From a virus, in IMG/VR virus record IMGVR_UViG_3300047476_002078, positions 42,802 through 106,801 of that record: 64,000 nucleotides of DNA. One strand, written 5' to 3'. The notes beneath the pieces were generated by a model. The model did no database searches, had not been told where the DNA came from, and was given only the letters and a program-made list of their open reading frames with translations. The position numbers and the translations under genes were made by a program. Positions 5,560 through 55,784 of this stretch are shown here, in pieces. Positions within the stretch are counted from its first letter, which is position 1. Every line of letters starts with the position of its first letter.

Positions 5560-5576
5560 GGCTATACCGATTCCAC
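5560..5576 (-). promoter_or_regulatory. conserved 17-bp element GTGGAATCGGTATAGCC (copy 1 of 5)
   Basis: Exact reverse complement on + strand, ~25 bp upstream of ligase start on - strand. Confidence 0.45.
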
Positions 5577-5611
5577 CGTTTAATATAAGTAATTGAATTT
5601 AATGAGGATTT

Positions 5612-5950
5612 ATGAGTTTTGAAGGGTATTATCAAATAAAGTGCGAAAATAATCACTATTACACGGAAAATGTTTATACGTTTTCTTTTTCTTCATCAAG
5701 GTGCTCTTACTGTGATGGAAAAATTATAGCTACAAAAATGGTAGATGAAACAAATGGGGAGTCAGAAGGGTATGATCCAAAATTTTCAGAAAATTGTGAT
5801 GTTTTAGTCTCAGTTTGGAAATCTGAATTAGAGTTTTTAACAGAAGAAAAAGAAAAATTTGAAAAAATTGCTAAATGTAAATATATGCACAAGATGAAAA
5901 TAGATGGGGAAGGCTATTGTTCTAAATGTGGCTGGAAACAAAATTTGTAA
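5612..5950 (+). CDS. Cys-rich zinc-binding hypothetical protein
   Basis: CxxC pairs at both ends. Confidence 0.4.
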   Translation: MSFEGYYQIKCENNHYYTENVYTFSFSSSRCSYCDGKIIATKMVDETNGESEGYDPKFSENCDVLVSVWKSELEFLTEEKEKFEKIAKCKYMHKMKIDGEGYCSKCGWKQNL

Positions 5951-5986
5951 AGAGGAGCCTGCTTTCAGGCTCCTCTCTTGTTTAGA

Positions 5987-6181
5987 TTACTCTCCGATAG
6001 AAAGCTTATCTTTTGAAACAATTCGCAGAATCATGTTTACTACCGCAAATACGCCTACTACAACGTCAGGTTGAGCAGCAATGTATTCGCTCACGCCCGG
6101 AGCGAAAAGTGCTCCTAATGCCACAATAGCGTTTACCCAAAGCGTTTTAGAAAGCCATGGCTTCTTTACACCGTTTTCCAT
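5987..6181 (-). CDS. small membrane protein, possible holin
   Basis: 64 aa, two hydrophobic segments, charged C-terminus. Confidence 0.3.
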   Translation of the reverse strand: MENGVKKPWLSKTLWVNAIVALGALFAPGVSEYIAAQPDVVVGVFAVVNMILRIVSKDKLSIGE

Positions 6182-6259
6182 TTTAAATTCTCCTTTTTAA
6201 GTTGAGTTCCTAAATAATTATAGAAACAATACATATAATGGTGACGAGGATATTTTATT

Positions 6260-6916
6260 ATGTCTATAAACATAAATCATTTTTTTAATTACGGTTACTC
6301 AGTGAGTCAAATTCCTGTCGAATTAGCGGATGCTTTGTTAGAAACAGTGAGAAAGCAAAATTATTCTGTTTGTGATGGAACTTACAAATCAAATTTGGAG
6401 GCTCCTTTACTAGCTTCTTGGAATAGTGAGCTTTTACCTAAAACTTCTAACATTGGTGAAACTCCTCCAATTTTAGAGTCTCTTCAAGCGATTTTAAAAG
6501 AAATGGGTTTTTTAAATTGGTTTGAGATTAACTTTGGGGTCTTTAGTCAATTTTCGGTAATGGTCAACAAATTTTCAAAAAATAATGGGATGATTTGGCA
6601 TAATGACCATTTAGATTCAACTTTTTTAAGTGTTTTAATTTATCTTTCTAAAGATATTTTTGAAGAAAATGATGGCGGATATTTGGAGTTAGGTAGGATA
6701 TACAACACTGATTATGTAATGGATGCTAGACCTCCTTCAGAAGAAGTTAGCTTATTAAGAAGTGTCTTGCCAAATCACGGAACAATAGTGCTTTTAAACA
6801 ATACTCAGATAACATCTGTTCACAGAGTTGAAAAAATGATTTCAGACAAAGAGCGTTATACAATTCTGTGTCATTTTGGTTATTGGCAAAATATTGTTCA
6901 CAAAAAACGGAAATAA
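6260..6916 (+). CDS. 2OG-Fe(II) oxygenase family protein
   Basis: WHNDHLD (HxD) and distal VHRV His. Confidence 0.5.
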   Translation: MSININHFFNYGYSVSQIPVELADALLETVRKQNYSVCDGTYKSNLEAPLLASWNSELLPKTSNIGETPPILESLQAILKEMGFLNWFEINFGVFSQFSVMVNKFSKNNGMIWHNDHLDSTFLSVLIYLSKDIFEENDGGYLELGRIYNTDYVMDARPPSEEVSLLRSVLPNHGTIVLLNNTQITSVHRVEKMISDKERYTILCHFGYWQNIVHKKRK

Positions 6917-6969
6917 TTTTGACTTACCGTAAAATACCTTTTAGCGTTTTAAAATACATGGAGGTTTCA

Positions 6970-7200
6970 ATGAAATTTTTATCTTTATTCAGTGTTCTTT
7001 TTTCCTTTTCTTTGTTTGCCCAAGAATTAAAATGTGACGTTAGATTAAACTACGTCGGTGTTTATTATAATTATTGTCCTGTTGGAACAGTTTCGGAAGC
7101 TGTAGATGTAAGATTGAGCGGTTCCCCTCAATATCCTTTTGTAAATGTGTTGCTAAGATGTGTAAAACCTGAAGTTGTGTGTAAAAAGGTTAATGAATAA
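6970..7200 (+). CDS. secreted small protein
   Basis: Signal peptide MKFLSLFSVLFSFSLFAQ after RBS GGAGG; upstream in-frame extension likely spurious. Confidence 0.4.
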   Translation: MKFLSLFSVLFSFSLFAQELKCDVRLNYVGVYYNYCPVGTVSEAVDVRLSGSPQYPFVNVLLRCVKPEVVCKKVNE

Positions 7201-8073
7201 ATGAAAAAGTTAGTAGTTGTAGATGTATCAAATATGTTTTTTAGGGCTTTCTATGGTGTACCAACACTTTCAAATAAGAAAGGGATGCACACCAACGCCA
7301 TTTTTGGGTTTTTGAAAATGGCACTCAACTTGACAAAAATGAGTCCTGATTATTTTGCATTTTGTATGGAAGGTGGAAGCTCTTTTAGAAAAGATATTTT
7401 TTCAGAATACAAAGGCAATAGAAGTGAATTGCCTGAAGAGTTAAAACAACAACTTCCATATATTCCAAAAGTGATTGAGTCTCTAGGATTTAAACAGATT
7501 CAACAAAAAACTTTTGAGGCTGACGATATAATTGGCACTTTATCTAAAAAAGCTTCAGAAAGCGGAATTAAAACCATAATCATATCAGGTGATAAAGATT
7601 TTTCTCAGCTTATAGACGAAAATGTAGAGCTTGTTGATACTATGAGAAACATTACCTACGCTTCAAAAGACGTGTTTTTAAAATACGGGGTAGAGCCTAA
7701 AAATTTCATAGATTATTTGGCTATAGTCGGAGACAGTTCAGATAATATTCCGGGCGTTTCTGGCATAGGGGCGAAAGGGGCAAGCTCGCTTCTAAACTTG
7801 TATAATTCCCTTGAAGGGATTTATGAGAATATTGAAAAGATTAAAGGCAAAAATAAAGAAAAATTAATCGCCTCTAAAGACAACGCCTTTTTGAGTAAAA
7901 GACTAGCAACAATAGTAACAGATGTACCTATTGAAATTAATTGGGAAGACTTTAAAAGAAATCCAATCAACAAAGAACTCATAAAAGAATTAATAGAAGA
8001 GTTAGAATTTACTCAACTTGACTACTTATATAAACCGCAGCCTGAATCTTTAAGCGAGTTAGAATACATGTAA
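7201..8073 (+). CDS. 5'-3' exonuclease / flap endonuclease (FEN, Pol I N-terminal-like)
   Basis: VVVDVSNMFFRAFYG, helix-3-turn-helix-like GIGAKGA motif. Confidence 0.75.
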   Translation: MKKLVVVDVSNMFFRAFYGVPTLSNKKGMHTNAIFGFLKMALNLTKMSPDYFAFCMEGGSSFRKDIFSEYKGNRSELPEELKQQLPYIPKVIESLGFKQIQQKTFEADDIIGTLSKKASESGIKTIIISGDKDFSQLIDENVELVDTMRNITYASKDVFLKYGVEPKNFIDYLAIVGDSSDNIPGVSGIGAKGASSLLNLYNSLEGIYENIEKIKGKNKEKLIASKDNAFLSKRLATIVTDVPIEINWEDFKRNPINKELIKELIEELEFTQLDYLYKPQPESLSELEYM

Positions 8074-8096
8074 AATGAAGGGAGTTAAATCTCCCT

Positions 8097-8447
8097 TCAT
8101 TGCGTGATTGGAATAATTTTCTTACTTTTTTCAGTTTTTGGAATTTCTATCTTTAATACTCCGTCTTTGTATGATGCTTTAATATCATCTGTATTAAGAT
8201 CATTCGCTAGTTTAAAAGATCGTTTAAATTTCCCATAATTAATTTCATTCAAAATAGTTCTGTCTGCTTCTGTTTTTTCTTTTTCATATTCAACAGTCAA
8301 AATATTATTGTTTGTTTCTATGTTGAATTTTTCAGATGAAACTCCGGGCACTTCGGCAAGAATGGATACTTTATCTTTGTAGTCAGTGATGCAAACATCA
8401 AAAGGTTTCACCATTTCATGACGGAAAAAAGAATCTGAATAAAACAT
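8097..8447 (-). CDS. Hsp20/alpha-crystallin small heat-shock protein
   Basis: Alpha-crystallin domain, AEVPGV ... GVLKIEIPK. Confidence 0.7.
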   Translation of the reverse strand: MFYSDSFFRHEMVKPFDVCITDYKDKVSILAEVPGVSSEKFNIETNNNILTVEYEKEKTEADRTILNEINYGKFKRSFKLANDLNTDDIKASYKDGVLKIEIPKTEKSKKIIPITQ

Positions 8448-8535
8448 TTTAACCTCCTAAAATTGTTCTTATTTATAAAATGTTTCCGTAATTTAATTTG
8501 TCAAGTGCCTAAAATAAAAATAAGGAATAACTTAT

Positions 8536-8811
8536 ATGAACAAAGAAGAAATTATATCTCTTGCAATGGAACGATTGGGTTGGACTGAAAGAAAAGTTCG
8601 GTCTTGGTATAAAAAAGAAAATAATTGGCTTAAAGGTAACTCTCCTAAAGAGTTAGTTGAAAGAGGTGAATCAGAAATAGTTGTAGAATTTTTAATGTCA
8701 CGGCAAAAAGATTTAGACGAAGATGATAAAGGCGAAGATGTTGAGCCAAAAGAAGAATATGAAGTAGTGTTCAAAAAAGATAAGAAGAAAAAATTATGGT
8801 TTAAACCATAA
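8536..8811 (+). CDS. hypothetical protein
   Basis: 91-aa acidic ORF. Confidence 0.4.
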   Translation: MNKEEIISLAMERLGWTERKVRSWYKKENNWLKGNSPKELVERGESEIVVEFLMSRQKDLDEDDKGEDVEPKEEYEVVFKKDKKKKLWFKP

Positions 8812-8833
8812 CATCATGCACAATTAAAATTTA

Positions 8834-8870
8834 TTGTTATAGTATTTTCCGTAAAATATAATTTACGGAA
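8834..8870 (+). promoter_or_regulatory. sigma70-like promoter TTGTTA-N17-TATAAT with CCGTAAAA palindrome in spacer
   Basis: TTGTTA 8834-8839, TATAAT 8857-8862, inverted TTCCGTAAA/TTTACGGAA flanking -10. Confidence 0.45.
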
Positions 8871-8881
8871 AAAGAGGTTAT

Positions 8882-9223
8882 ATGAAAAAAGGAACAGTTA
8901 CAAAAATTTCATTCTTAGATAATCCGCAAGTCCCTGTTGAAAAGGCTTTCGTATTAGAAGGAGAGAAATTTACGGGGTATTTTTCTGAGGAACCTAGAGT
9001 TGGTCAATGCTTTTTACTCACTCAATGTCAGGACGATGTGGCATTTTTTAAAAGCTCTACAGTCAAATCTGTTTTTAAACCAGATACAGAGCAAGATAAA
9101 TTAATTATTCCTTCTCAATTTCAAAATAAAGAAAAACTGAATATTCCAGTTGTTAAAGAAAATGAAACACTTTTTATAACAATGAACTCTTTATACCTTT
9201 TAAGTGATGTGACGGATGCGTAA
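8882..9223 (+). CDS. hypothetical protein
   Basis: 113-aa ORF with RBS. Confidence 0.4.
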   Translation: MKKGTVTKISFLDNPQVPVEKAFVLEGEKFTGYFSEEPRVGQCFLLTQCQDDVAFFKSSTVKSVFKPDTEQDKLIIPSQFQNKEKLNIPVVKENETLFITMNSLYLLSDVTDA

Positions 9224-9361
9224 CAAGATTAAAAAACTTCATTTGGTGTCGGTTATTGTATGTTTTTTTGTGCTGGGTAACGCAATTAACAAAAAAGATT
9301 TTAAGTTAATTGCGTTCACTTCATTTTTTACATTTGTTGGTTTGTACAGATACGTAAGGAT

Positions 9362-9643: not shown

Positions 9644-9648
9644 ATAAT

Positions 9649-10460: not shown

Positions 10461-10556
10461 CTTGACCTACCTTAAAAATGATACATATAGTAAAATTAAT
10501 TACTTCTGTAACAAGTCTAATAAAAAACTTAATAGATAGAATAACTTACGTATTTA

Positions 10557-11358: not shown

Positions 11359-11425
11359 AAAAACCCTCTCAAGTGAATTTACCTATTAAATATAAAATAA
11401 AAGTTAGTTATCTTCTTATATTTTT

Positions 11426-12025: not shown

Positions 12026-12076
12026 TATTTATACCCTCTATAAGGTAGAAATAATGAAACTTTATGACGCATAGCA

Positions 12077-12245: not shown

Positions 12246-12695
12246 TCAGTTCCATTTGTCTCTTCTGTAGTTGCCTCTATCTCCTCGATCACGTCTGTTA
12301 CCTCTGTTTTCGATGTCATATTTCGTGAATCCTGCATCATTTGTGAAAGGGCGTTCCTCACGATTAAAAGACCTTTCTTCACGATTAAAAGACTTTTCTC
12401 TAGGGGCATACGAGGTTCTTTCAGTACGAGGTCTATCCCCTCTAGGTGCTTGAGGTTGAGCTTCTTTTACAACTAGGGTTCTTCCGCTTAGTTCTCCACC
12501 ATTTAATTCCTGAATAGCTTTCTTACCGTCTTCTTCATTTTCCATCTCTACAAAAGCAAAACCTTTAGATTTTCCTGTTTCTCTATCGGTAATCACTCTT
12601 GCATCAACAACTTTTCCAATCTCAGAAAAAGTCATTTTAAGATCATTTGAGGTTACAGTGTAGGGTAGATTAGCTACGTAAATTTTCTTAGACAT
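12246..12695 (-). CDS. RRM-domain RNA-binding protein with RG/REER-repeat tail
   Basis: RNP2 IYVANL, RNP1 KGFAFVEM; C-terminal REERSFN x3 and RG/RD repeats. Confidence 0.7.
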   Translation of the reverse strand: MSKKIYVANLPYTVTSNDLKMTFSEIGKVVDARVITDRETGKSKGFAFVEMENEEDGKKAIQELNGGELSGRTLVVKEAQPQAPRGDRPRTERTSYAPREKSFNREERSFNREERPFTNDAGFTKYDIENRGNRRDRGDRGNYRRDKWN

Positions 12696-31303: not shown

Positions 31304-31333
31304 CACCGTAAAAGTTTTACACCGTAAAATTTA
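31304..31333 (+). promoter_or_regulatory. two direct copies of ACACCGTAAAA motif
   Basis: TACACCGTAAAAGTTTTACACCGTAAAAT upstream of SPFH gene. Confidence 0.4.
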
Positions 31334-34809: not shown

Positions 34810-34845
34810 TAAAACCTCGTTGTTTAATGATATTTTTTACCGTAA

Positions 34846-34872
34846 AATATAAGCAGCTAATTACGGTAAAAC
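34846..34872. promoter_or_regulatory. inverted pair TTACCGTAAAAT / TTACGGTAAAAC in divergent intergenic region
   Basis: Between divergent MTase (-) and 34924 (+). Confidence 0.4.
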
Positions 34873-34888
34873 AATAGGTAAAATTATA

Positions 34889-34905
34889 GTGGATTCGGTA
34901 TAGCC
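34889..34905 (+). promoter_or_regulatory. conserved 17-bp element (copy 2, GTGGATTCGGTATAGCC)
   Basis: 19 bp upstream of ATG 34924, RBS AGGAGG between. Confidence 0.45.
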
Positions 34906-34923
34906 TTCAGACAGGAGGTAACT

Positions 34924-44040: not shown

Positions 44041-44101
44041 AGTCTCTCCTTTTCTTCATAACCTTGCTAATTTGCTTATAATAAGCAGAGTTGGGGTTAT
44101 A

Positions 44102-46249
44102 ATGAAAATCGACAAGAAAACACTCTCTGTTTTACAGAAACTAGCAATTACTTATCAAGAGTATAAGAAATTGCATCCTCGTACTAAGAAGACACCCGAT
44201 GACCCTCTTTTTACTTTGGCACAAGACCCAAACAAAAAAGAGTTCAAGGTTAAGCCTAAAGATATTAAAACAGTCATGCCTTCCAAGACACCTACCAAGA
44301 GTGTTCCGCAAAAGACAGACGACCCTGTTGAAAAGTTTCGCCCAAAGCTGGCTCCAAGTGCTTATCAAAAGCAGATGGATTCAAAAGAGCTTTTGAAAAA
44401 CGCTAAGAAAATGTCTTCTGACGATATGGCATGGCATCTTCTTAATTCTAAGATTGGTATGGGTTTTGAGAGTGGGGAACTTCGAGATCAAATGAAGAGT
44501 CATTTTGGTATTGCCAATATGTATGCCATGATGATTTTAAATCCAAATATATCAAAAGAAAGCCGAGACAATATTGCTTCATGGTTGCTCGATAAAGCCG
44601 GAGTATATTTTGTTTCCAGTAAATCTCTTAAAAGATTTCTCGAAGGTTGTGCGAATAAAGGCATTATCTCAAAAGAGATTTGGGAAGAAGAAGCCAATGG
44701 GGATAGTCAGCGTAAGGAAGAGGATGAGATTGCTCAAAATTACACCGCTGACCAACTTAAAAAACTTCCTGCTAAAAAGATTCAAGAGAATTGGAATGAG
44801 ATTTGTCAAAACGAAAATCTTCCGACTTCCATGATTCAAAAGATGTTGGGTGATAAGGATGTGAAGAAAGCCCTTGAGTTCATGAAAAAGGGCTACATAG
44901 AAGATACAGGAGCCATGTCTGGTAAGATTGGTGAGCGTAAAAATAAAATTGGTAAAGCGTTAAAAATTCTTTCTCATAAAAATGTTCCTTTTGAAGCGTT
45001 ACAAGAAGTGTTTGTACCTTCTCTTAAAAAACATCTTTCAACAAATAACTACAAGGCTTACGAAGTCGCTGAATACCTTGCGAGTCATCCTGACATAAAC
45101 AAGCCAGAGAACAGTGAGCTAAAAAAGTTAGTGCTTCAGGCTTATAAGACTCAGCTTAAATACTACAAAGACGACCCAGAATATGTGGAAGACCCTTACA
45201 AGTCTCAACGTAACTTTGATGAGCTAAAGCACCCTTCCGCTCCCCCTGCTAACTTAAAGCTGTCGAAGGAAGAGTTCTTAGCAATTTGGAAGATTAGAGA
45301 TGAAGGTCCATATAAGTCTCAAAATGAAAGATGGTTTGAGCATCCTGATATGCCAGATGAGATTATCAAAGAGAGTTTGACTAAAAAAGATAATAAAGTA
45401 AAAGACCCTCTTGATAAATATCTTAGTGACTATTCGGAAGTTCGGAAACTCGCTTTTCATCAAGCTCGAAAAAGAAATCTCTTATCAGATGACGACTTAA
45501 TCAAAACTGTAAAAGCTAATTTGAATCTGCATGGCAATGACAATGAACTTATGAAAAAGTTCGCTGAACAAGCTTACACTTATGGAAAAAGCACTAATGA
45601 TATACCTCGTTATATTTCTAAGGGAAGTGATGAGGAACGCAAAGCTGTAGAAGAACAGATGAAAAAGTCAGCTTTCCATGAAGAGTTTGATTTTGAAGTC
45701 TCCGCAGTTTACAACATTGATAAAGAGCCACACAAAGATTTCGCAAAAACTTCTAAGAAACTTGGAAATGTAATGGAAGGTGTTTACCATGGTACAAGCT
45801 ATGCAAACGCCGCTGGGATTCTTTCAGATGGGGTTAGAGTTGATACCGAAGAAAGAACAGGTTCTATGTTCGGTAGGGGTTTTTATCTAGCTTCTGCTTC
45901 TTCTAAAGCTGCCCAATATGCTGGAGAAAAATTTAGTCAGCATGATGGAGATGGGGTAGTCTTTATGCTGAATGTCGCTCTTGGTAAATCCAAAGAAATG
46001 AAATATGGCAGACCCGAAGGAGATAATCTAAAATATCGTATGTTGAGTCCGGAAGAAAAACAAATGATTGAGGATTACAAAAAGAAAACAGGCAAAGACC
46101 TTGATGATAAGTGGCACTACGACCATGACTCTGTAACTGCTAAGGCAGGGCAGGCTTTAGATTATGATGAGTTTGTGGTGAAAGACCCTTCTCAGCTTCA
46201 GATTAAAAAGATTGTTATTGTGAAGAAGACACCAAAGGCAAAAGTATGA
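44102..46249 (+). CDS. PARP-like ADP-ribosyltransferase (H-Y-E class) with shared N-terminal leader module
   Basis: C-terminal VYHGTS ... GRGFYLASASS ... YDEFVVKDP (His-Tyr-Glu triad); N-terminal YQEYKKLHPRTKKTPDDPLF. Confidence 0.65.
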   Translation: MKIDKKTLSVLQKLAITYQEYKKLHPRTKKTPDDPLFTLAQDPNKKEFKVKPKDIKTVMPSKTPTKSVPQKTDDPVEKFRPKLAPSAYQKQMDSKELLKNAKKMSSDDMAWHLLNSKIGMGFESGELRDQMKSHFGIANMYAMMILNPNISKESRDNIASWLLDKAGVYFVSSKSLKRFLEGCANKGIISKEIWEEEANGDSQRKEEDEIAQNYTADQLKKLPAKKIQENWNEICQNENLPTSMIQKMLGDKDVKKALEFMKKGYIEDTGAMSGKIGERKNKIGKALKILSHKNVPFEALQEVFVPSLKKHLSTNNYKAYEVAEYLASHPDINKPENSELKKLVLQAYKTQLKYYKDDPEYVEDPYKSQRNFDELKHPSAPPANLKLSKEEFLAIWKIRDEGPYKSQNERWFEHPDMPDEIIKESLTKKDNKVKDPLDKYLSDYSEVRKLAFHQARKRNLLSDDDLIKTVKANLNLHGNDNELMKKFAEQAYTYGKSTNDIPRYISKGSDEERKAVEEQMKKSAFHEEFDFEVSAVYNIDKEPHKDFAKTSKKLGNVMEGVYHGTSYANAAGILSDGVRVDTEERTGSMFGRGFYLASASSKAAQYAGEKFSQHDGDGVVFMLNVALGKSKEMKYGRPEGDNLKYRMLSPEEKQMIEDYKKKTGKDLDDKWHYDHDSVTAKAGQALDYDEFVVKDPSQLQIKKIVIVKKTPKAKV

Positions 46250-46474: not shown

Positions 46475-47104
46475 ATGAAAAAAATAGTTTCAAGCCTTCA
46501 TAAAATTGCGTCAGATTTAGAAAAAACTGCTTTAGATTACAATGAGTATAAAAAGCTACACCCGAACACAAAAAAGACACCTTCTGACCCGATGTTTAAA
46601 GAAAATAAACCTCAACAGGAGAGTCAGGCTCCCAAACAACAAGCTCCAAATCAACAACCAAAATCTGAGCCTAAACAAGAATCTGCTCCTAAAGTAAAGA
46701 AAACTGTTAGTGATTTTACGGATGCTGAATTAGATGAAATTGGTTTCATGCCGTCTTATAGAAAAAGTTTAAGTGATAAAGAAGTTTTGGAAGAATATAA
46801 CGCTAAAAATAAAGTTGATGAGCTTGTAAAATCTAAAAAATTGAACCTTTCTGATTATCCTGATACTGCCTTTACCTCTATTCTGCAAGATTACAAAGAA
46901 AAACAAAATAAAGGAAAATTAAGTGATGATGATTTTGAACCAGAAAACTTTTATACCGCAGTTAGAAAACATTTAAGCGATAAAGAAGTTACTCCTAAAA
47001 CTGTGAGGGAAGCGATTCGTGTTTATCACCCAGATGCAAAACTCACAAATGACCAAATAAGTTCTGTAATGAATATGTATGAAAAAAAACAAGGTTGGGG
47101 CTAA
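46475..47104 (+). CDS. hypothetical protein with shared N-terminal leader module
   Basis: N-terminal LDYNEYKKLHPNTKKTPSDPMF then Q/P/K low-complexity linker. Confidence 0.5.
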   Translation: MKKIVSSLHKIASDLEKTALDYNEYKKLHPNTKKTPSDPMFKENKPQQESQAPKQQAPNQQPKSEPKQESAPKVKKTVSDFTDAELDEIGFMPSYRKSLSDKEVLEEYNAKNKVDELVKSKKLNLSDYPDTAFTSILQDYKEKQNKGKLSDDDFEPENFYTAVRKHLSDKEVTPKTVREAIRVYHPDAKLTNDQISSVMNMYEKKQGWG

Positions 47105-48610: not shown

Positions 48611-48611
48611 T

Positions 48612-49102: not shown

Positions 49103-49163
49103 CTCACCGCAAAAATTGATATTGACTAAGTGTGTTCAATAGCATATTATCCGTAAAATTTTT

Positions 49164-49645: not shown

Positions 49646-49862
49646 AGCAGAATTTAGAGTGATGTATCAAAAATCCGTCGGCTTTTGCGGTGAGGCTAGA
49701 ATGGAGTGTGTAAAAAGTTTCCTAACTTTTGAAGAAGCCTCTAAATTTGCCAAAGACTATGAGTTACCTAATCACATGGACGAAATATACATAATGCAAA
49801 TTTACACAAAGGATAAAAATAATGAGGACGATGGCAAATGTTCTACTGGAAAAGAGTCTTAA
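49635..49862 (+). CDS. hypothetical protein
   Basis: 75 aa. Confidence 0.35.
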   Translation: MANKAEFRVMYQKSVGFCGEARMECVKSFLTFEEASKFAKDYELPNHMDEIYIMQIYTKDKNNEDDGKCSTGKES

Positions 49863-50091
49863 CGCTCTTTTGAAAAAACTTACTCCTCAAGACTTAGCTA
49901 AATATGAGGCTTGGAAGTTAGACCAATCTCACGATCTTGAATTGGATGATAAAATGCTTGAGCTTGAAATAGATAACCATGTCGTAGCAATTGAAGAAGT
50001 TAAAGAAATGGAAAAAGATACAGACCAGTATTATCAACTTCAAGCACATATCAAAAAAATACAGAAATTAGCTAATCTTTGGGACACCTAA
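49822..50091 (+). CDS. hypothetical protein
   Basis: 89 aa. Confidence 0.35.
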   Translation: MRTMANVLLEKSLNALLKKLTPQDLAKYEAWKLDQSHDLELDDKMLELEIDNHVVAIEEVKEMEKDTDQYYQLQAHIKKIQKLANLWDT

Positions 50092-50253
50092 TCAACAAGG
50101 CTCGGATGAGGAAAACCGAGCCTAAAAAACCTACTCCCATACCTATTCTTGGGAAACCGCTCATAACTGCTTGAATGTTTAATAAACTTAGGGAACAGCC
50201 TATTAAAGTAAAATGAATCTTTTTATCTAGTTTTGGGCACATAACTCATTATA

Positions 50254-50270
50254 GTGGAATCGGTATAGCC
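50254..50270 (+). promoter_or_regulatory. conserved 17-bp element GTGGAATCGGTATAGCC (copy 3)
   Basis: 24 bp upstream of ATG 50294, RBS AGGAGG between. Confidence 0.45.
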
Positions 50271-50293
50271 TATGTAACAAATAGGAGGATTCC

Positions 50294-50740: not shown

Positions 50741-51002
50741 TTTTGAATACAAAGGTTATACTTACTTAAAAGAACTTGATGTAGAACCTGATAACATCAA
50801 AATCTTTCACATGGCTGTAAAAGAAGGTAAAGAAGTACATATAGATTTCAGCCCATACACTGAAATGGATTTTGAAACCTTTCAAATGTTGGTTGATCTT
50901 AATTTTCCAGAAAGGATTGGAGTAAAAACTCCTCATGGGACTTTTTTCTCTCCTTGGAATAAAGATTCTTTGATGAAATTTTGGCTTGAGAGAAAAGTAT
51001 GA
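50733..51002 (+). CDS. hypothetical protein
   Basis: 89 aa. Confidence 0.4.
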   Translation: MDNFEYKGYTYLKELDVEPDNIKIFHMAVKEGKEVHIDFSPYTEMDFETFQMLVDLNFPERIGVKTPHGTFFSPWNKDSLMKFWLERKV

Positions 51003-51400
51003 ATATAACTCCAGAATTAGTAAAAACTCTTGAACCTAATCAGATATTTGTTTTTGGCTCAAACGAAGCTGGCAGGCATGGAGCAGGAGCCGCCAAAAAT
51101 GCGGTTAAGTGGGGAGCTATTTATGGGGTAGGTGAGGGATTAAAAGGTCAAACTTATGCTATACCGACAAAAGATAAAAACATTGAGACGCTAAATCTTG
51201 AAGATATAAATGATTACGTTCTTAATTTTTATAACTTTGCCAAGATAAACCCTGATCTTGATTTTTTAGTTACAGAAATAGGGTGCGGTTTAGCAGGTCT
51301 TACTCCAGAACAAATAGCACCTATGTTTAAAGACACTTCAAAACTGCCGAATGTTTACCTACCTTATAGGTTTTGGAATGTTTTGGTGGAAATGGTATAG
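50999..51400 (+). CDS. Rossmann-like nucleotide-binding protein (possible SLOG/LOG-like)
   Basis: IFVFGSNEAGRHGAGAAKNA glycine-rich loop after beta-strand, second G-rich loop EIGCGLAG. Confidence 0.35.
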   Translation: MNITPELVKTLEPNQIFVFGSNEAGRHGAGAAKNAVKWGAIYGVGEGLKGQTYAIPTKDKNIETLNLEDINDYVLNFYNFAKINPDLDFLVTEIGCGLAGLTPEQIAPMFKDTSKLPNVYLPYRFWNVLVEMV

Positions 51401-51402
51401 CC
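51386..51402 (+). promoter_or_regulatory. conserved 17-bp element variant GTGGAAATGGTATAGCC (copy 4)
   Basis: 15/17 match, upstream of 51443/51455 start. Confidence 0.35.
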
Positions 51403-51442
51403 AGCCAAATCTTAATTTAAGATAAGATTTGGCTAAATATAA

Positions 51443-51817
51443 ATGGAGGGATTTATGAAAGCTATTCTGATTGATGTTGAAAAACGTGAAGTAAAAATAG
51501 TTGATGTGGAAAAAGGAATTGATGCGATTTATGCACAGATTAAATGCGACTGTTTCACAGTTGTAACATTAGAAAACGAAGATGCTATTTTTGTAGATGA
51601 TGAAGGTTTACTTAAATTGGATGAAAATTCAAAATTCTTTTTCATTGAAGGTTATCATCAACCTTTAGCAGGAAACGGTTTAATTCTCGGAACCGATGAA
51701 GAAGGTGAAAGCGTTGATGTGAAAAGTGATTTAGAGGATATAAAGAACAAGGTGCGTTTTCTTAACATTCAAGAAATTCACGCTACAAACCCAGAATGGC
51801 TATCTCAATTCTTATAA
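51443..51817 (+). CDS. hypothetical protein
   Basis: 124 aa; true start may be internal MKAIL. Confidence 0.4.
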   Translation: MEGFMKAILIDVEKREVKIVDVEKGIDAIYAQIKCDCFTVVTLENEDAIFVDDEGLLKLDENSKFFFIEGYHQPLAGNGLILGTDEEGESVDVKSDLEDIKNKVRFLNIQEIHATNPEWLSQFL

Positions 51818-51826
51818 GAAGGTTTT

Positions 51827-52066
51827 ATGAATAAAATTCAGAGTTACCATTTTGGTTATGTTTTAGAAAAAGTTAATTATGTTGAAGAAGTTTTAGAAAT
51901 TATTGAAACGCCTTATGCGGCTTTAAACATCTTCGGTCAGATTTTAAATCAAAAAAGAGTACACAGAGTAAACTTTTGCAGATTTACTCCGGGCGAGGCT
52001 ATTTCAATGCCTTACAAAAATAAAAAGGATTGCGAAGATTTTCAAAAATTATATGAAAATTCGTGA
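51827..52066 (+). CDS. hypothetical protein
   Basis: 79 aa. Confidence 0.35.
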   Translation: MNKIQSYHFGYVLEKVNYVEEVLEIIETPYAALNIFGQILNQKRVHRVNFCRFTPGEAISMPYKNKKDCEDFQKLYENS

Positions 52067-52268
52067 TAAAGTAGGTTATATGGAAAATAAATTCAGAATG
52101 ATTGTAATGTGTGATGGAGAAAACGGTTCAATTGTTCCGTGCGAAGATGCGAGCTTGTTTGAAACGCTTGAAGATGCTAAAGAGTGGGCTGAAGCGATTA
52201 TTCAATCAGGCAACGCTCATTACATAAACATATATCAAAACGATGAAATGGTTTGCAGGGTTTTATGA
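52053..52268 (+). CDS. hypothetical protein
   Basis: 71 aa. Confidence 0.35.
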   Translation: MKIRDKVGYMENKFRMIVMCDGENGSIVPCEDASLFETLEDAKEWAEAIIQSGNAHYINIYQNDEMVCRVL

Positions 52269-52498
52269 AGACTTTTGATTTCTCAGATTTAGAAAAAGCT
52301 GTATTAGCTGATATTAATCAGAATCATGAGCATATTCCAGATTACTATAGTCTGTGGGCAGATGAGTTTAAAGTTGATCGGAAACTTGTTAAAGAAATTG
52401 CTTGGTTACATTTTTATGACGTGACTAAAGGTGAAAATATAAACCAAATTAAAAACAGTATTCGTTCTACTCTTATACAACGAGGCTATAAAGTATAA
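52253..52498 (+). CDS. hypothetical protein
   Basis: 81 aa. Confidence 0.35.
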   Translation: MQGFMKTFDFSDLEKAVLADINQNHEHIPDYYSLWADEFKVDRKLVKEIAWLHFYDVTKGENINQIKNSIRSTLIQRGYKV

Positions 52499-52575
52499 TG
52501 GCGACCGAGGAGGGACTCGAACCCCCAACCGCTGCCTTAGAAAGACAATGCTCTATCCGGTTGAGCTACTCGGTC
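52499..52575 (-). tRNA. tRNA-Arg (anticodon UCU)
   Basis: GACCGAGTAGCTCAACCGGATAGAGC...anticodon loop TTTCTAA...GGTTCGAGTCC...CTCGGTCGCCA. Confidence 0.7.
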
Positions 52576-52609
52576 AAATTCCAATTATTCTGTGTTAAAT
52601 TTTAAAAGT

Positions 52610-53431
52610 CTATTTAAAATTTAATTGAACCTGTGAATCTGTCCCATCTTCATGAGCAAAAGTAAAATAATGCTGTTGATGCCATTTTGATTTGATTGCA
52701 TTTGACAGTCTCATTTTAACTTTCCCTGCTTCATCAAAATCAGTAAAAATGTTTTTAAGATGGCTTCCTGCTACGTGCCCTGTGCCCTTCATCTCATCTC
52801 CTGCATATTGTTCCCAGAGAGGCTTTAAATGATTATGCCCTGCGGTAGAGTGGATAACGGAATGTTGTCCATATTTTTTACCAATTGCTTCCAAGTCTTT
52901 TGGAGAAACTTTATTTGTGTGGTGAACCATGAAAACATTTTCATCATTCCCCATGAAGTGCCCTGTACCTCTGTGAAAAACAACGCCCATTTTCTGAAGT
53001 TCTTGCATGAGTTGTTGTGTACGTTTTTTATTTTCTTCGGAATCTGTTTTTTGACCATGTGGGTTTTCTGCGGTTAGTACCGTAAATGAACCGTGGTTTA
53101 AATGATGCTTGAGAAATTTTTTATCTATTGGGGCTGCTCCGGAAATAAAAGGTCGTGCGTTTTCGGAAGTCTTTACTTGCGTTCTTGTTCTCAATTCTTT
53201 GAACTTATCAAAGTCTAATTTTGTATCGGGATGATTCTGCTTAAACATATCGTAAGCAGTATTAATGCTCTCGTCTGATTTAGTCTGTGGTTTATTTTGA
53301 GAAGGTTGAGCAAAAAGAGGGTCATTTGGTCTTTTTTTAGTCAAAGGGTGTAACTTCTTATAGTCTTCATAAGTTATTTTGGCTTTTTTAAGCTTATTTT
53401 CAAGTTCAGAGATTAAGTCAGATACTTTCAT
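52610..53431 (-). CDS. His-rich hypothetical protein with shared N-terminal leader module
   Basis: N-terminal ITYEDYKKLHPLTKKRPNDPLF then Q/P/K linker; many His/Gly in C-terminal region. Confidence 0.5.
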   Translation of the reverse strand: MKVSDLISELENKLKKAKITYEDYKKLHPLTKKRPNDPLFAQPSQNKPQTKSDESINTAYDMFKQNHPDTKLDFDKFKELRTRTQVKTSENARPFISGAAPIDKKFLKHHLNHGSFTVLTAENPHGQKTDSEENKKRTQQLMQELQKMGVVFHRGTGHFMGNDENVFMVHHTNKVSPKDLEAIGKKYGQHSVIHSTAGHNHLKPLWEQYAGDEMKGTGHVAGSHLKNIFTDFDEAGKVKMRLSNAIKSKWHQQHYFTFAHEDGTDSQVQLNFK

Positions 53432-53556
53432 GGATACACCTTCAATAAATTAAACATTACTTTTTACGTTATTATTAAAACATAATACTTTTTGACTTTA
53501 AATAACAATCAGGCATTAATGTTTTTACATCATTATAGAAATACAAAGGCTCATTT

Positions 53557-53886
53557 ATGATGATTTCAAAAAAAGTAAGTTTTTACAAAAATGACAAAGG
53601 TGAGAGCCTTTCTTGTATTGTTTACGACAAAGACAATTTTTTTGTAACTTTGAAAGAAAGCTCCGACGGTGATTTAGATATTGAATTTAAGACTGAAAAC
53701 TTAGGAGAGATCAAGATAGCTACTCAGTTAGGATACTCAGATTTAAGCGAATATGAAGTTTTAGATGATATTGCTGTAAACATCATAGAAACGCTCACAT
53801 TTTACGGTGAAGAGGTTCTTGGCGACTTGGTTGAATACTATAACAACATTGATATAAGTGAAGTTGTAGAAGCCACCACGCATTAA
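53557..53886 (+). CDS. hypothetical acidic protein
   Basis: 109 aa. Confidence 0.4.
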   Translation: MMISKKVSFYKNDKGESLSCIVYDKDNFFVTLKESSDGDLDIEFKTENLGEIKIATQLGYSDLSEYEVLDDIAVNIIETLTFYGEEVLGDLVEYYNNIDISEVVEATTH

Positions 53887-53933
53887 AATCCGACTAATTT
53901 AGTTTTAAGAATTTACTAATTCATTGCGTTATA

Positions 53934-54596
53934 ATGAATGGGATAGTTAAATTCTATTTAATTATTATCATGTGTCTTTTTTACCGTGATATTAATATCC
54001 GTTCAACTCTAATGGAAGAACATTCCGAAGATAATGTTTATGTTTATCCTAATGTAGAACAATCTTTCTCTGAAAAATTTTCCGTAAACATCATAGCTAA
54101 AAATTACAAAAAGCCTGAATTACAAAAACTAAACCAAGCTTCATTATTGCTCGAAGATGTTTTCAATAGCGAAGAATACAGAGAAGAAGTTTTAAATTTT
54201 ACATCATTTAGAAGAAAAGCGTTTCAATATAATAGAGATCAAACTAACGAACAGATTTACTTAACGATCATTTGGGGAGCAGAGATTTTAGATTCAAGAT
54301 TCGACAGAGAAATGGATTTAATTGTTCAAATGTATCACGCACCTTTTTCAAAAACAGTAGGATATACTTACTGGAATGAGCCGACAGTTTACACAAATAA
54401 AAAATATCATAGAAGATTTACGCCTTGCGAAGTAGCTTCAAATTTGGTTCACGAGTGGATGCACAAGTTGGGATACTCACATTCCGTAAAATGGGAAGAA
54501 AAAAGGGATTTTACGGTTCCTTATGGGCACAATGAGATAATTAAAAAACTCTGCCCTCTTGCCGAACAAGGTAAATTGACTCCATTATATTGGTAA
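53934..54596 (+). CDS. metzincin-like zinc metallopeptidase (paralog)
   Basis: HEWMHKLGYSH (HExxHxxGxxH); GYTYWNEPTVYTNKKY parallels 1299..1904. Confidence 0.5.
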   Translation: MNGIVKFYLIIIMCLFYRDINIRSTLMEEHSEDNVYVYPNVEQSFSEKFSVNIIAKNYKKPELQKLNQASLLLEDVFNSEEYREEVLNFTSFRRKAFQYNRDQTNEQIYLTIIWGAEILDSRFDREMDLIVQMYHAPFSKTVGYTYWNEPTVYTNKKYHRRFTPCEVASNLVHEWMHKLGYSHSVKWEEKRDFTVPYGHNEIIKKLCPLAEQGKLTPLYW

Positions 54597-54892
54597 GGTT
54601 TTACTTTTACGGAGTTTTTATGACTAAGAATCAAAAGAAGATAATGTTAGGAGTTGATGGAGTTAAATTTAATTTGAAAAATTTAGCAGACAGGCTAGAG
54701 ATTGTTTCGAGAAGTTTAAAAAATATGCCTTTAGAAACAAAACATGAAGATAAGCTACCTGTTGGTCAAGCATCACCCTGTTATGCACTTAAAGAGTTAG
54801 GCGGAGAATTAAGCGTCATTAATTACAACATCAATTATCTGTCGGATATGCTAGAAGATTTTTACAAAGAATATAATAAAGAGGTTATGTAA
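54590..54892 (+). CDS. hypothetical protein
   Basis: 100 aa. Confidence 0.35.
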   Translation: MVRFYFYGVFMTKNQKKIMLGVDGVKFNLKNLADRLEIVSRSLKNMPLETKHEDKLPVGQASPCYALKELGGELSVINYNINYLSDMLEDFYKEYNKEVM

Positions 54893-54983
54893 AATGGATT
54901 CAATAGGAAGCGTTTGTTGCAAAGACCAATGTAAGGGAACAGAGTACCAATGTGCCTGTCAAAAATGCGACAAAAAATAACGA

Positions 54984-55382
54984 ATGGGAAATTTGAAAAA
55001 ATACATAAAAGAAATTTGCAAAATTTACGGTGTAAAGATCAGATTCAAAAATAACTTTTCAGGAGGCGTGTACTGGAAAGGTAAAATAGAAATGGGAAAA
55101 TGTTTGAACAAAAAAGATTACATCGACGTTTTCTGTCACGAATTAGCACATTTTTTAAATGACGTTGAAAGCAAATACCCAGTATATCATCAACAAGACA
55201 GTTCAAAAGTTATAAAAAGAATGGGTTTAAAAAATTATTCTTTATATGCTTTGAAAGCTGAACTCTATACTGAAAAAAGAGGGAAAGAGATTGCAAAAAT
55301 CTGGTTTCCTCAACATAAATATGAAAGCTCATATTTTAACACCTCCTACTGGAAAGGTTTTTTCTATGGGTATTATCTTTAA
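54984..55382 (+). CDS. putative HExxH zinc metallopeptidase-like protein
   Basis: VFCHELAHFLND motif. Confidence 0.35.
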   Translation: MGNLKKYIKEICKIYGVKIRFKNNFSGGVYWKGKIEMGKCLNKKDYIDVFCHELAHFLNDVESKYPVYHQQDSSKVIKRMGLKNYSLYALKAELYTEKRGKEIAKIWFPQHKYESSYFNTSYWKGFFYGYYL

Positions 55383-55391
55383 GGAGATCAC

Positions 55392-55742
55392 ATGGATGCT
55401 TTGAATTTTGTTTATTGGCTTCAAGGTTTTTTAGAATTATCAAACACACAAAATCTGAATGAAGAACAAGTTAAAATTTTAAAAGACCATATAAAACTTG
55501 TTTTAGAAAAGAAAACTCCAAATTATTCTCCTTTTACAACCTCTCCGCCTTACCATCAACCTTTTGTAATCAATACTCCGAATAATATACCTATGACTCC
55601 GATTTGCTCTACTAATGTTAAACTCGATAATCGCTCTTTCTGTAACTCAGGTTTGACTCTAAATGAAGGTGTCTCCCCATTAACTTTTAACGATGGAGTA
55701 GCCCCTTTAACTTTCGAGGACATACCGTCTTTTGAAGAATAA
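55392..55742 (+). CDS. hypothetical protein
   Basis: 116 aa. Confidence 0.4.
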   Translation: MDALNFVYWLQGFLELSNTQNLNEEQVKILKDHIKLVLEKKTPNYSPFTTSPPYHQPFVINTPNNIPMTPICSTNVKLDNRSFCNSGLTLNEGVSPLTFNDGVAPLTFEDIPSFEE

Positions 55743-55767
55743 GTAATAACAGTTACTTAGCCTCCGA

Positions 55768-55784
55768 GTGGAATCGGTATAGCC
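55768..55784 (+). promoter_or_regulatory. conserved 17-bp element GTGGAATCGGTATAGCC (copy 5)
   Basis: 20 bp upstream of probable ATG 55804, RBS GGAGGA between. Confidence 0.45.

What the first reader, a model, noticed from the sequence alone, without database searches (positions are those of the whole stretch)
5560..55784. 17-bp element GTGGAATCGGTATAGCC repeated five times just upstream of genes
There are four exact or near-exact copies: 5560-5576 on the minus strand, 34889-34905, 50254-50270 and 55768-55784. A fifth 15/17 copy lies at 51386-51402. All are intergenic and end 19-25 bp (54 bp for the variant) before a start codon, with an AGGAGG Shine-Dalgarno in between. They serve genes on both strands. 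A 17-mer is not expected even once by chance in 64 kb. The spacing is too tight for a -35/-10 sigma70 promoter. It fits better with a contiguous promoter recognised by a phage-encoded or phage-modified RNA polymerase (compare T7-type or jumbo-phage late promoters, which share a TATAG core), or with a conserved 5'-leader RNA element.
Basis: seen in the sequence. Interest (0 to 1): 0.7.

Follow-up and report, generated by a model that had tools for sequence, protein, structure and literature searches.

The report
Repeated promoter of a huge phage
The repeated 17-base element is most likely the core of a promoter that an uncultivated phage of about 356 kb places in front of dozens of its genes: a familiar kind of signal with a previously undescribed sequence and an unusual layout.

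Summary
The window holds five copies of GTGGAATCGGTATAGCC with at most 2 mismatches, against 0.01 expected. All five point at a gene start.

The window comes from a huge phage. Its ligase also occurs on a 355,874-bp contig. Another 17.4-kb piece that very probably belongs to the same genome (L246) carries 22 more copies, roughly one for every second gene. One pair lies back to back, only 18 bp apart.

The full motif is R-GTGGAATCGGTATAGC-M-NN-YGARA. Nothing is conserved upstream of it. No substitution fell in 184 aligned element positions between two strains that differ by about 3% elsewhere.

Two related phages keep a diverged version (GTGGAA-N4-TA..., and CTGGATAGCG-TA...) at the same places. 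In these, start codons with no Shine-Dalgarno sit exactly at motif positions 20-23. That places the transcription start 4-6 nt after the 17-mer.

TATAGC is therefore a -10-like hexamer, GTGGAATCGG is an abutting upstream box, and there is no -35. The best reading is a phage-class promoter read with sigma-type geometry. A T7-type start at TATA|G, sigma-54 and an RNA leader motif are all disfavoured.

The polymerase or sigma factor was not found. This is a new member of a known kind, of moderate interest.

The parts
5553..5577 (-). Promoter copy 1 (17-mer 5560-5576, exact; extended motif g-GTGGAATCGGTATAGCC-tttaagt). It drives the ATP-dependent DNA ligase gene 4570-5535(-). Predicted start about 5556-5554, Shine-Dalgarno AGGAG 5547-5543, ATG 5535.
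   Evidence: 34.3 bits. The ligase is a lone minus-strand gene between plus-strand genes, so it needs its own promoter within 5536-5611.
34888..34912 (+). Promoter copy 2 (17-mer 34889-34905, GTGGATTCGGTATAGCC). It sits at the strand switch after the minus-strand C5-methylase gene and opens the long plus-strand gene block. Predicted start about 34909-34911, Shine-Dalgarno AGGAGG 34913-34918, ATG 34924 (72-aa ORF).
   Evidence: 30.9 bits. A second motif, TTACCGTAAAATA, lies 52 nt upstream at 34837.
50253..50277 (+). Promoter copy 3 (17-mer 50254-50270, exact). Predicted start about 50274-50276, Shine-Dalgarno AGGAGG 50283-50288, ATG 50294 (148-aa protein of unknown function).
   Evidence: 36.6 bits. 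It follows a 162-nt non-coding gap after ORF 49822-50091.
51385..51409 (+). Promoter copy 4, the variant (17-mer 51386-51402, GTGGAAATGGTATAGCC). It overlaps the last 15 nt of ORF 50999-51400 and lacks the YGARA extension. It drives the DUF3846 gene (ATG 51455, Shine-Dalgarno GGAGGG 51445-51450).
   Evidence: 28.1 bits, the weakest of the five.
51403..51434 (+). Perfect 12-bp inverted repeat (AGCCAAATCTTA, 8-nt loop, TAAGATTTGGCT) directly after copy 4. It is either a 5'-leader hairpin or an operator-like palindrome.
   Evidence: Read from the sequence and in the predicted fold. It starts 4 nt upstream of the start predicted from the relatives, which is a point against that start for this one site.
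55767..55791 (+). Promoter copy 5 (17-mer 55768-55784, exact; full extension gatGAAA). Predicted start about 55788-55790, Shine-Dalgarno GGAGG 55795-55799, ATG 55804 (95 aa). The gene caller's earlier in-frame ATG at 55786 would lie upstream of the predicted start.
   Evidence: 39.9 bits, the best of the five.

Best explanation
The 17-mer is the core of a class of phage promoters. The full signal is R-GTGGAATCGGTATAGC-M-NN-Y-G-A-R-A, about 25 bp. TATAGC acts as a -10-like hexamer (T-12 and A-11 conserved). GTGGAATCGG is a specificity box that abuts it, at about -22 to -13, and takes the place of a -35 element. Transcription starts 4-6 nt after the 17-mer, at motif positions 21-23, on a purine that follows a pyrimidine. 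In this phage that yields short, purine-rich leaders of 10-25 nt that carry the Shine-Dalgarno. This geometry is that of a multisubunit RNA polymerase with a sigma-70-family -10 reader. The most likely reader is therefore host core polymerase directed by a phage-specified sigma or sigma-appropriating factor that reads the upstream box. A phage-encoded polymerase is not excluded. The class is used densely in one part of the roughly 356-kb genome and sparsely in the window. In the window it heads the ligase gene, the start of a long plus-strand block and three further units. Shown here: the copies, their orientation, their conservation and the position of start codons in relatives. Inferred: the start site, the -10 assignment and the kind of polymerase.
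For: (1) The window holds five copies against 0.01 expected, sharply separated from background.
(2) The same genome holds many more. The AAA ATPase of metagenome contig L163 is 99% identical to P0038. P0038 and the window's ligase P0001 each have a longest contig of 355,874 bp from JGI. L246, which carries P0038 and comes from the same sequencing run as window-identical contigs, has 21 copies with at most 2 mismatches and one weaker copy in 17.4 kb.
(3) Of 29 sites, 26 are followed by a Shine-Dalgarno and a start codon at motif positions 32-46, or about 70 for two sites. All of these point at the gene. The other three are followed by a short non-coding unit or by a terminator.
(4) A divergent pair (L246 9443- / 9478+, also in L163) has only 18 bp between its upstream ends. 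That leaves no room for other promoters.
(5) A terminator-like hairpin with a T-run sits directly upstream of L246 1302+.
(6) The logo shows positions 1-16 nearly invariant, a purine at -1, no information upstream of that, and then Y20 G21 A22 R23 A24 followed by a purine-rich tract.
(7) Purifying selection: 0 substitutions in 184 element positions between two strains, against 3.2% in other intergenic DNA and 3.3% in coding DNA.
(8) Relatives keep the architecture at orthologous places. L247 (AAA protein 76% identical, GC 51%) has GTGGAA-N4-TA.... L250 (51% identical) has CTGGATAGCG-TAnnnn five times. Both have the divergent pair in front of the AAA gene.
(9) In L247, 7 of 16 GTGGAA occurrences have an ORF's ATG at motif positions 20-23 with no Shine-Dalgarno and a pyrimidine just before it (P about 2.5e-5). 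Three of these starts were verified against L246 orthologues (MCCLIGY/MCGLIGY, MSYKFPKM/MSYRFPKM, and a zinc-ribbon protein). L250 has one ATG at position 21. Leaderless messages must begin at the A of the ATG, which pins the start.
(10) A more distant relative, L248, uses canonical TTGACA-N17-(G)GTATAnT promoters. GGTATAG is therefore a normal -10 region in this group.
Against: There is no experimental 5' end. The start site is transferred from two relatives whose motif is diverged.

No sigma factor or polymerase gene was seen in the roughly 110 kb of this genome that could be read.

Position -7 of the putative hexamer is C, not the T that sigma-70 reads. A 10-bp box directly abutting the -10 has no well-studied precedent.

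At window copy 4, a perfect 12-bp inverted repeat begins immediately after the 17-mer, 4 nt upstream of the predicted start. That would fit an earlier start.

It was not read directly.

The near-invariance of about 16 positions is more typical of promoters of phage-encoded polymerases than of sigma promoters.
Confidence: 0.68

Rival explanations
1. It is a T7-type contiguous promoter of a phage-encoded single-subunit polymerase. GTGGAATCGGTATA would span -14 to -1, with initiation at the G of TATA|G (motif position 15).
For: The block is contiguous and nearly invariant, ending in TATA followed by a purine (28 G and 1 A at position 15), like CACTATAG in T7/SP6 promoters (own knowledge). At window copy 4 the leader hairpin starts right after the 17-mer and would be fully transcribed only from such a start. 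Near-identity of more than 25 copies is typical of phage-polymerase promoters.
Against: In relatives L247 and L250, Shine-Dalgarno-less start codons lie at positions 20-23. A start at position 15 would give untranslatable leaders of 5-8 nt. TATA|G is not kept in those relatives (TAGAAC, TAGCTC, TAAGAC, ATTACC), whereas T11 and A12 are. The conserved YGARA and the switch to purine-rich composition begin at position 20/21, not 15. No PF00940-type polymerase was seen in about 110 kb.
Confidence: 0.12
2. It is an RNA element in the 5' leader, made as part of longer transcripts. It would serve as a processing site for an endoribonuclease, or as a binding site for a translational regulator such as the RRM-domain protein encoded at 12246-12695(-).
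For: It always lies shortly upstream of a Shine-Dalgarno and is strictly strand-specific. The window encodes an RRM_1 protein. One copy per cistron in tandem gene arrays would also suit a processing signal.
Against: The divergent pair only 18 bp apart leaves no upstream promoter for either transcript. No Rfam family matches. The predicted folds share no partner for the 17-mer, with a mean pairing probability of 0.44. In relatives the start codon lies 3-5 nt after the element with no Shine-Dalgarno, which makes sense only if transcription starts there. Some copies directly follow terminator-like hairpins.
Confidence: 0.07
3. It is a sigma-54 (-24/-12) promoter. TGGAATCGGTATAGC has the GG-N10-GC spacing of TGGCACG-N4-TTGC.
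For: The GG at positions 3-4 and the GC at positions 15-16 are exactly 10 bp apart and nearly invariant in this phage. AAA+ ATPases are encoded nearby.
Against: Sigma-54 starts about 12 nt after the GC, at about position 28. That lies inside or beyond the Shine-Dalgarno at several sites (Shine-Dalgarno from position 21-25 at window 34889 and at L246 5300 and 16196). It also lies beyond the start codons at positions 20-23 in L247 and L250. The GC is not conserved in the relatives (AC, TC, CT). The -24 and -12 flanks (AAT in place of CAC, TA in place of TT) depart from the consensus. The pattern was not found in bacterial genomes beyond chance.
Confidence: 0.02
4. It is a tRNA-derived or tRNA-mimicking sequence. 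The first 14 nt equal the D-arm of a phage tRNA-Glu(UUC), and 14 of 17 equal a tRNA-Leu D-arm.
For: IMG/VR loci L232, L237 and L243 carry tRNA genes reading ...TAGTGGAATCGGTATAACAC.... L074 and the window's own tRNA-Leu have GTGGAATCGGTAGACAC and TTGGAATCGGTAGACAA.
Against: The element cannot form a D-stem (GTG against GCC). Nothing tRNA-like flanks it, and ARAGORN and Rfam find only the five true tRNAs. The relatives' versions drift away from the D-arm sequence. My rough estimate is that a 14-mer match somewhere in the very large space of tRNA sequences has a chance of a few percent.
Confidence: 0.03
5. It is chiefly a recombination or cassette-boundary repeat, like the promoter-stem-loop repeats that flank mobile ORFs in T4-type phages, with promoter activity secondary or absent.
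For: Gene content changes at the elements. A unit of 105-aa gene plus promoter lies between two direct copies (L246 9478 and 9959) and is absent in L247, where the pair abuts the AAA gene. Homology between L145 and L246 breaks about 28 nt after a copy. A 9-nt part of the element is expanded in tandem in L192.
Against: This does not explain the strict orientation towards genes, the fixed relation to start codons, the YGARA extension, or the conservation of only the TGGA...TA core in relatives. Recombination at repeated promoters is an expected by-product.
Confidence: 0.03

Closest known systems
Promoters without a -35 that consist of a -10 element plus adjacent upstream bases: extended -10 promoters (TGnTATAAT), phage T4 late promoters (TATAAATA read by gp55) and Thermus phage P23-45 middle/late promoters (own knowledge)
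   Same: There is no -35 hexamer. All information sits in and just upstream of a TA-rich hexamer placed 6-7 nt before the start. The class is phage-specific and marks a set of genes.
   Different: Here the upstream extension is 10 nearly invariant bases (GTGGAATCGG) rather than 2-3. The hexamer ends in GC. The reading factor is unknown.
Phage T4 middle promoters (MotA box plus sigma-70 -10, with sigma appropriation by AsiA/MotA; own knowledge)
   Same: A phage-specific box replaces the -35, while a -10-like hexamer is kept. The architecture would let a phage redirect host polymerase.
   Different: The MotA box is centred near -30, 11-13 bp from the -10. Here the box abuts the -10 and is centred near -18. 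No MotA or AsiA homologue was seen.
T7/T3/SP6-type single-subunit polymerase promoters (own knowledge)
   Same: Both are contiguous blocks of about 20-25 bp, nearly identical between copies, containing TATA followed by a purine, and placed in front of many genes.
   Different: In T7 the start is the base right after TATA. Here the start inferred from leaderless genes in relatives is 6-8 nt further downstream, and the last 4 bases before it are not conserved.
AR9 / phiKZ-type jumbo-phage non-virion polymerase late promoters, A(-11)ACA-N6-U-A/G(+1) (PMC5449584)
   Same: Both are short, lack a -35, and have an element at about -11 to -8 and a pyrimidine-purine at -1/+1. Both are read by a multisubunit enzyme with a sigma-like subunit.
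   Different: The sequences are unrelated. The AR9 consensus holds only about 6 informative bases, against about 20 here. No split beta/beta' genes or other phiKZ-like genes were seen in the DNA read.

Membership tests
Sigma-70-family promoter (-35/-10) | A -10 hexamer TAnnnT at -12 to -7, with T-12, A-11 and T-7 the most conserved | tested here: inconclusive
   T11 and A12 are invariant in 29 sites and kept in relatives L247 and L250. With the start at position 23 they are -12 and -11. Position -7 is C (28 of 29), not T.
Sigma-70-family promoter (-35/-10) | A -35 hexamer 16-18 bp upstream of the -10 | tested here: not met
   Information content is about 0 at all 29 columns upstream of position -1.
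Sigma-70-family promoter (-35/-10) | Start 6-8 nt downstream of the hexamer, on a purine after a pyrimidine | tested here: met
   This is inferred, not measured. Start codons without a Shine-Dalgarno lie at motif positions 20-23 in L247 (7 cases, P about 2.5e-5) and at position 21 in L250. Each is preceded by T or C. The phage's own sites show Y20 and G21.
T7-type single-subunit polymerase promoter | A contiguous conserved block of about 17-23 bp spanning the start | tested here: met
   The conserved block is 25 bp.
T7-type single-subunit polymerase promoter | Initiation at the purine immediately after the TATA-like melting segment | tested here: not met
   The inferred start is 6-8 nt downstream of TATA|G. 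TATAG is not conserved in the relatives. This is indirect: there is no 5'-end mapping.
T7-type single-subunit polymerase promoter | The phage encodes a T7-like RNA polymerase | not testable with these tools
   None was found in about 110 kb (the window, its flanks and L246). The remaining roughly 245 kb of the 355,874-bp contig could not be fetched.
Sigma-54 promoter (-24/-12) | GG-N10-GC within TGGCACG-N4-TTGCW | tested here: inconclusive
   The GG-N10-GC spacing is present in this phage. The GC is not conserved in L247 or L250, and the flanking consensus bases differ.
Sigma-54 promoter (-24/-12) | Start about 12 nt downstream of the GC | tested here: not met
   That start would fall at about position 28, which is within or after Shine-Dalgarno sequences and after the start codons of the relatives.
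Structured RNA leader motif (Rfam-type) | A match to a described family, or a conserved secondary structure | tested here: not met
   There is no Rfam hit other than tRNAs in the window at gathering threshold, and none in L246 at E<=1. Minimum-free-energy structures of 26 leaders share no pairing for the 17-mer.
tRNA or tRNA-like element | A cloverleaf, or at least a D-stem and flanking arms | tested here: not met
   ARAGORN and Rfam find tRNAs only at five other places. The bases GTG...GCC cannot pair, and the flanks are not conserved.

The most novel reading that the evidence does not exclude
The element defines a new promoter architecture: a 10-bp specificity box fused directly to a -10-like hexamer. 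It would be read by a so far unidentified sigma-like or polymerase-associated factor of a clade of uncultivated huge phages. That factor would contact DNA one to one and a half helical turns closer to the start than any known -35 reader. In relatives the same promoter launches leaderless messages, so this clade would switch between leadered and leaderless expression on one promoter scaffold.
Probability: 0.2. Interest if true: 0.65.

Novelty: new member of a known kind. Interest (0 to 1): 0.4.

Why it matters
The motif gives a ready transcription map for an uncultivated phage of about 356 kb. Each copy marks a transcription unit. The dense and sparse regions probably correspond to temporal or functional gene classes. 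The motif also corrects at least one gene start: 55804 rather than 55786.

Comparison with two relatives shows how a phage promoter drifts (GTGGAATCGG-TATAGC, GTGGAAnnGG-TAnnnC, CTGGATAGCG-TAnnnn) while its position and a TGGA...TA core stay fixed. It also shows the same scaffold serving Shine-Dalgarno-led genes in one phage and leaderless genes in another.

No open question in the field depends on this finding.

Tried and rejected
(1) Close relatives in GenBank phages. Megablast and blastn of 8-kb pieces gave nothing useful. A 30-nt query containing the element found no phage record with the 17-mer.

(2) IMG/VR scans for the exact 17-mer and for a version with a loosened 3' end returned only coding, chance or tRNA matches. 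A scan for the L250-type motif gave only single chance hits.

(3) A GTDB genome scan for the element plus GGAG gave 11 unrelated, mostly high-GC coding matches. The element is therefore not a bacterial signal.

Most hits are a coding motif in high-GC DNA. The low-GC hits first looked like independent phages but proved to be a strain of the same phage, 92-98% identical. I withdrew an early idea that the element is conserved across unrelated phages.

(5) All other contigs that encode window proteins are 100% identical to the window and give no variation.

(6) Phages whose ligase is 57-59% identical (L210, L212) show no copy in 21 kb each.

(7) Extending the window by about 10 kb on each side found no further copy.

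(8) The possible sixth copy at 1606(+) scores within noise.

(9) Sigma-54, tRNA mimicry, an RNA fold and complementarity to the 16S rRNA tail (checked by eye only) were considered and set aside for the reasons given under the rivals.

(10) The sigma-70 consensus scan is not enriched in 40-59 kb: 47 sites found against 60 expected.

(11) Full-text searches found no paper that contains the sequence or describes such a motif.

Full report
**Observation**

The pattern GTGGAATCGGTATAGCC occurs five times in the window with at most 2 mismatches, at exactly the coordinates and strands given. Shuffled sequence gives 0.01 matches. The family is sharply bounded. The next-best 17-mers have at least 4 mismatches. 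A weight matrix built later from 29 sites scores the five at 28-40 bits and everything else at 8.3 bits or less, which is within the range of shuffled sequence. Each copy is followed by a Shine-Dalgarno and a start codon 18-24 nt after the 17-mer, or 52 nt for the variant. Each points at that gene. The variant at 51386 overlaps the last 15 nt of the preceding ORF.

**What the window is**

The window has 31-38% G+C, five tRNA genes, about a hundred mostly small ORFs and strong Shine-Dalgarno sequences. Recognisable genes include:
- an SNF2 helicase and an ATP-dependent DNA ligase;
- a 5'-3' exonuclease and three C5 DNA methylases;
- a PARP-domain protein, several 2OG-Fe(II) oxygenases and an RRM protein.

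No deposited phage is close. The helicase's best relatives are phages of 300-485 kb. The ligase protein also occurs on a JGI contig of 355,874 bp. The window is therefore part of an uncultivated huge phage. Every other contig that encodes window proteins is 100% identical to it.

**More copies**

The 17-mer is absent from 50,697 GenBank phage records. In IMG/VR it occurs only as chance, coding or tRNA matches. GTDB genomes hold it only as chance matches.

A metagenome scan returned mostly a coding motif in high-GC DNA. It also returned short contigs of 30-46% G+C from two lake samples in which the element again precedes Shine-Dalgarno-ATG, up to four times per 1.6 kb. These are not independent phages. 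The AAA ATPase of one of them (L163) is 99% identical to P0038, whose longest contig is again 355,874 bp from JGI. The contigs align at 92-98% identity to L246, a 17.4-kb contig that carries P0038 and comes from the same run as window-identical contigs.

L246 holds 21 copies with at most 2 mismatches and one weaker copy, about one for every second gene. The window thus shows the sparse end of a signal that is used very densely elsewhere in what is almost certainly the same genome.

**Anatomy**

Aligning 29 sites gives R(-1) GTGGAATCGGTATAGC M(17) N N Y(20) G A R A, followed by a purine-rich tract up to the Shine-Dalgarno. The 29 columns upstream of the purine carry no information, so there is no -35 element and no A+T tract.

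Of the 29 sites, 26 are followed by Shine-Dalgarno plus ATG at motif positions 32-46, or about 70 for two sites with an intervening hairpin. Three have no ORF. Two of these are followed by paralogous non-coding units of 60-90 nt and then a second copy. One is followed by a terminator-like hairpin.

One pair is back to back with 18 bp between the upstream ends. One copy directly follows a hairpin with a T-run.

Between L246 and the lake strain, none of 184 aligned element positions differs. Other intergenic DNA differs by 3.2% and coding DNA by 3.3%. About six changes would have been expected.

**DNA signal or RNA signal**

Rfam finds nothing but the tRNAs. Predicted folds of 26 leaders share no partner for the 17-mer. 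The divergent pair leaves no room for separate promoters. In the window, the ligase is a lone minus-strand gene whose whole upstream space is 76 bp and contains the element. These points favour a promoter over a leader motif.

**Where transcription starts**

Two relatives were reached through the AAA protein.

L247 (76% identical, 51% G+C) carries GTGGAA-N4-TA... at the orthologous places, including the divergent pair before the AAA gene. Of its 16 GTGGAA occurrences, 7 have an ORF's ATG at motif positions 20-23. These have no Shine-Dalgarno, and a pyrimidine sits just before the A (binomial P about 2.5e-5). For three of these genes the start is verified by N-terminal alignment to the L246 orthologues. 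One is a class-II amidotransferase that must begin Met-Cys.

L250 (51% identical) has CTGGATAGCG-TAnnnn five times upstream of genes, again with the divergent pair, and one ATG at position 21.

Leaderless messages begin at the A of the start codon. The start therefore lies at positions 21-23. This agrees with the Y20-G21 step and with the onset of purine-rich leader composition in the phage's own sites.

With that start, T11 and A12 are -12 and -11 (or -10 and -9), so TATAGC is a -10-like hexamer. T11 and A12 are the only hexamer bases kept in all three phages. GTGGAATCGG is a box at about -22 to -13. A still more distant relative, L248, uses ordinary TTGACA-N17-(G)GTATAnT promoters, so GGTATAG is a normal -10 region in this group.

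**Alternatives**

*T7-type start.* A start at TATA|G would give leaders of 5-8 nt without a Shine-Dalgarno in the relatives, and TATAG is not kept there. In its favour, the leader hairpin of window copy 4 starts right after the 17-mer, and the copies are unusually uniform.

*Sigma-54.* The GG-N10-GC spacing fits, but the start would fall at about position 28, beyond Shine-Dalgarno sequences and beyond the start codons of the relatives. The GC is also not conserved in those relatives.

*tRNA resemblance.* The first 14 nt equal the D-arm of a phage tRNA-Glu, and 14 of 17 equal a tRNA-Leu D-arm. No stem can form and nothing tRNA-like flanks the element. I treat the resemblance as coincidence.

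*Recombination.* Gene cassettes are gained and lost at the copies. This is what one expects of repeated promoters and does not explain their orientation or spacing.

**What reads it**

No sigma factor or RNA polymerase gene is present in the roughly 110 kb of this genome that I could read. About 245 kb remain unseen. The geometry points to a multisubunit polymerase with a sigma-70-family -10 reader and a phage-specified reader of the upstream box. That step is inference.

The AR9 jumbo-phage late consensus, A(-11)ACA-N6-U-A/G(+1), is similar in layout but unrelated in sequence (PMC5449584).

**Verdict**

The finding is real and is best explained as a phage-class promoter.

The sequence has not been described in any collection or paper I could search. 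The kind of element is ordinary, though its layout, a long box fused to the -10, is unusual. I rate it a new member of a known kind, interest 0.4.

Noticed in passing
window 1978, 6927, 8849, 31306, 31322, 34840, 49151, 60740 (+); 24529, 26209, 26244 (-): A second conserved upstream motif, (T)TTACCGTAAAAT(A), lies 25-50 nt before many gene starts. It occurs twice in tandem at 31306/31322 and as an inverted pair in the divergent region 34837-34871, just upstream of promoter copy 2. Its layout resembles the studied element: a box abutting a TAAAAT -10-like hexamer, with no -35. It is probably another promoter class of the same phage. In L246, where the studied element is dense, its CCGTAAAA core occurs 10 times but none of the occurrences carries the full motif.
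   Followed up: partly
L232 7638(-), L237 735(+), L243 1066(-); L074 7400(+); window 27969(-): The first 14 nt of the element are identical to the D-arm of a phage-encoded tRNA-Glu(UUC) (…TAGTGGAATCGGTATAACAC…). In addition, 14 of 17 nt match tRNA-Leu D-arms. I judge this coincidental, but it is unexplained.
   Followed up: partly
L192 822-900(-), compared with L246 2079(+): In the lake strain, the 9-nt unit GGTGGAATC (the 5' half of the element) is expanded to about 8 tandem copies directly upstream of one promoter copy. The other strain has a single copy there. The element contains the short direct repeat GGT…GGT, which may favour slippage.
   Followed up: no
L246 1319-1404 and 2005-2078 (+); L246 152(-): Two paralogous non-coding units of 60-90 nt (…GCGAAAGGGCAACGC…GACTCTACCATGGTAGGGGGAGG…) each sit between two promoter copies. 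One further copy is followed after about 30 nt by a terminator-like hairpin with no ORF. These may be small RNAs made from this promoter class. There is no Rfam match.
   Followed up: partly
L246 9478-9959 compared with L247 6837-6870; L145 about 902 compared with L246 about 127; L163 2570-2815 compared with L246 8502-8747: Gene content changes at or near promoter copies. A unit of 105-aa gene plus promoter is present in one phage and absent in its relative. Homology between the two strains breaks about 28 nt after a copy. One gene is only 75% identical between strains whose flanks are 93-98% identical. The repeated promoters may act as recombination points for gene cassettes.
   Followed up: no
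L247 (whole locus) and L250 5334(+): The 51%-G+C relative seems to express many genes as leaderless messages, with the ATG 3-5 nt after the promoter core and no Shine-Dalgarno. The phage of the window uses strong AGGAGG sites behind the homologous promoters. This suggests hosts with different translation-initiation habits.
   Followed up: partly
window 52610-53431(-), 44102-46249(+), 46475-47104(+); L098 266-883(-): Three otherwise different window proteins, among them the PARP-domain protein, share an N-terminal segment of about 45 residues with an ORF of the lake-strain contig L098 (42-47% identity). This may be a common targeting or packaging module.
   Followed up: no
window 44072-46249(+); L225 6109-8100 (about 2-4 kb upstream of the window start): The phage encodes two large proteins with a PARP catalytic domain. 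It also has at least six 2OG-Fe(II) oxygenase genes, a NADAR protein, three C5 DNA methylases, an RRM_1 protein and an SPFH/Band-7 protein. This is an unusual load of ADP-ribosylation and modification genes.
   Followed up: no
window 55786 versus 55804: The gene caller's start for the gene behind promoter copy 5 (ATG 55786) lies inside the promoter motif, upstream of the predicted transcription start. The in-frame ATG at 55804 has a GGAGG 5 nt upstream and is the more likely start.
   Followed up: yes
metagenome loci L092-L209 with 50-68% G+C: Most metagenome matches to the 17-mer are one recurring coding context (…CTGGTTGAnnTCnTCGCTGCCG-GTGGAATCGGTATAGCC-GACGACCAGCAGCAG…). This is a conserved peptide of a bacterial protein family read on the opposite strand, and is unrelated to the phage element.
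   Followed up: no
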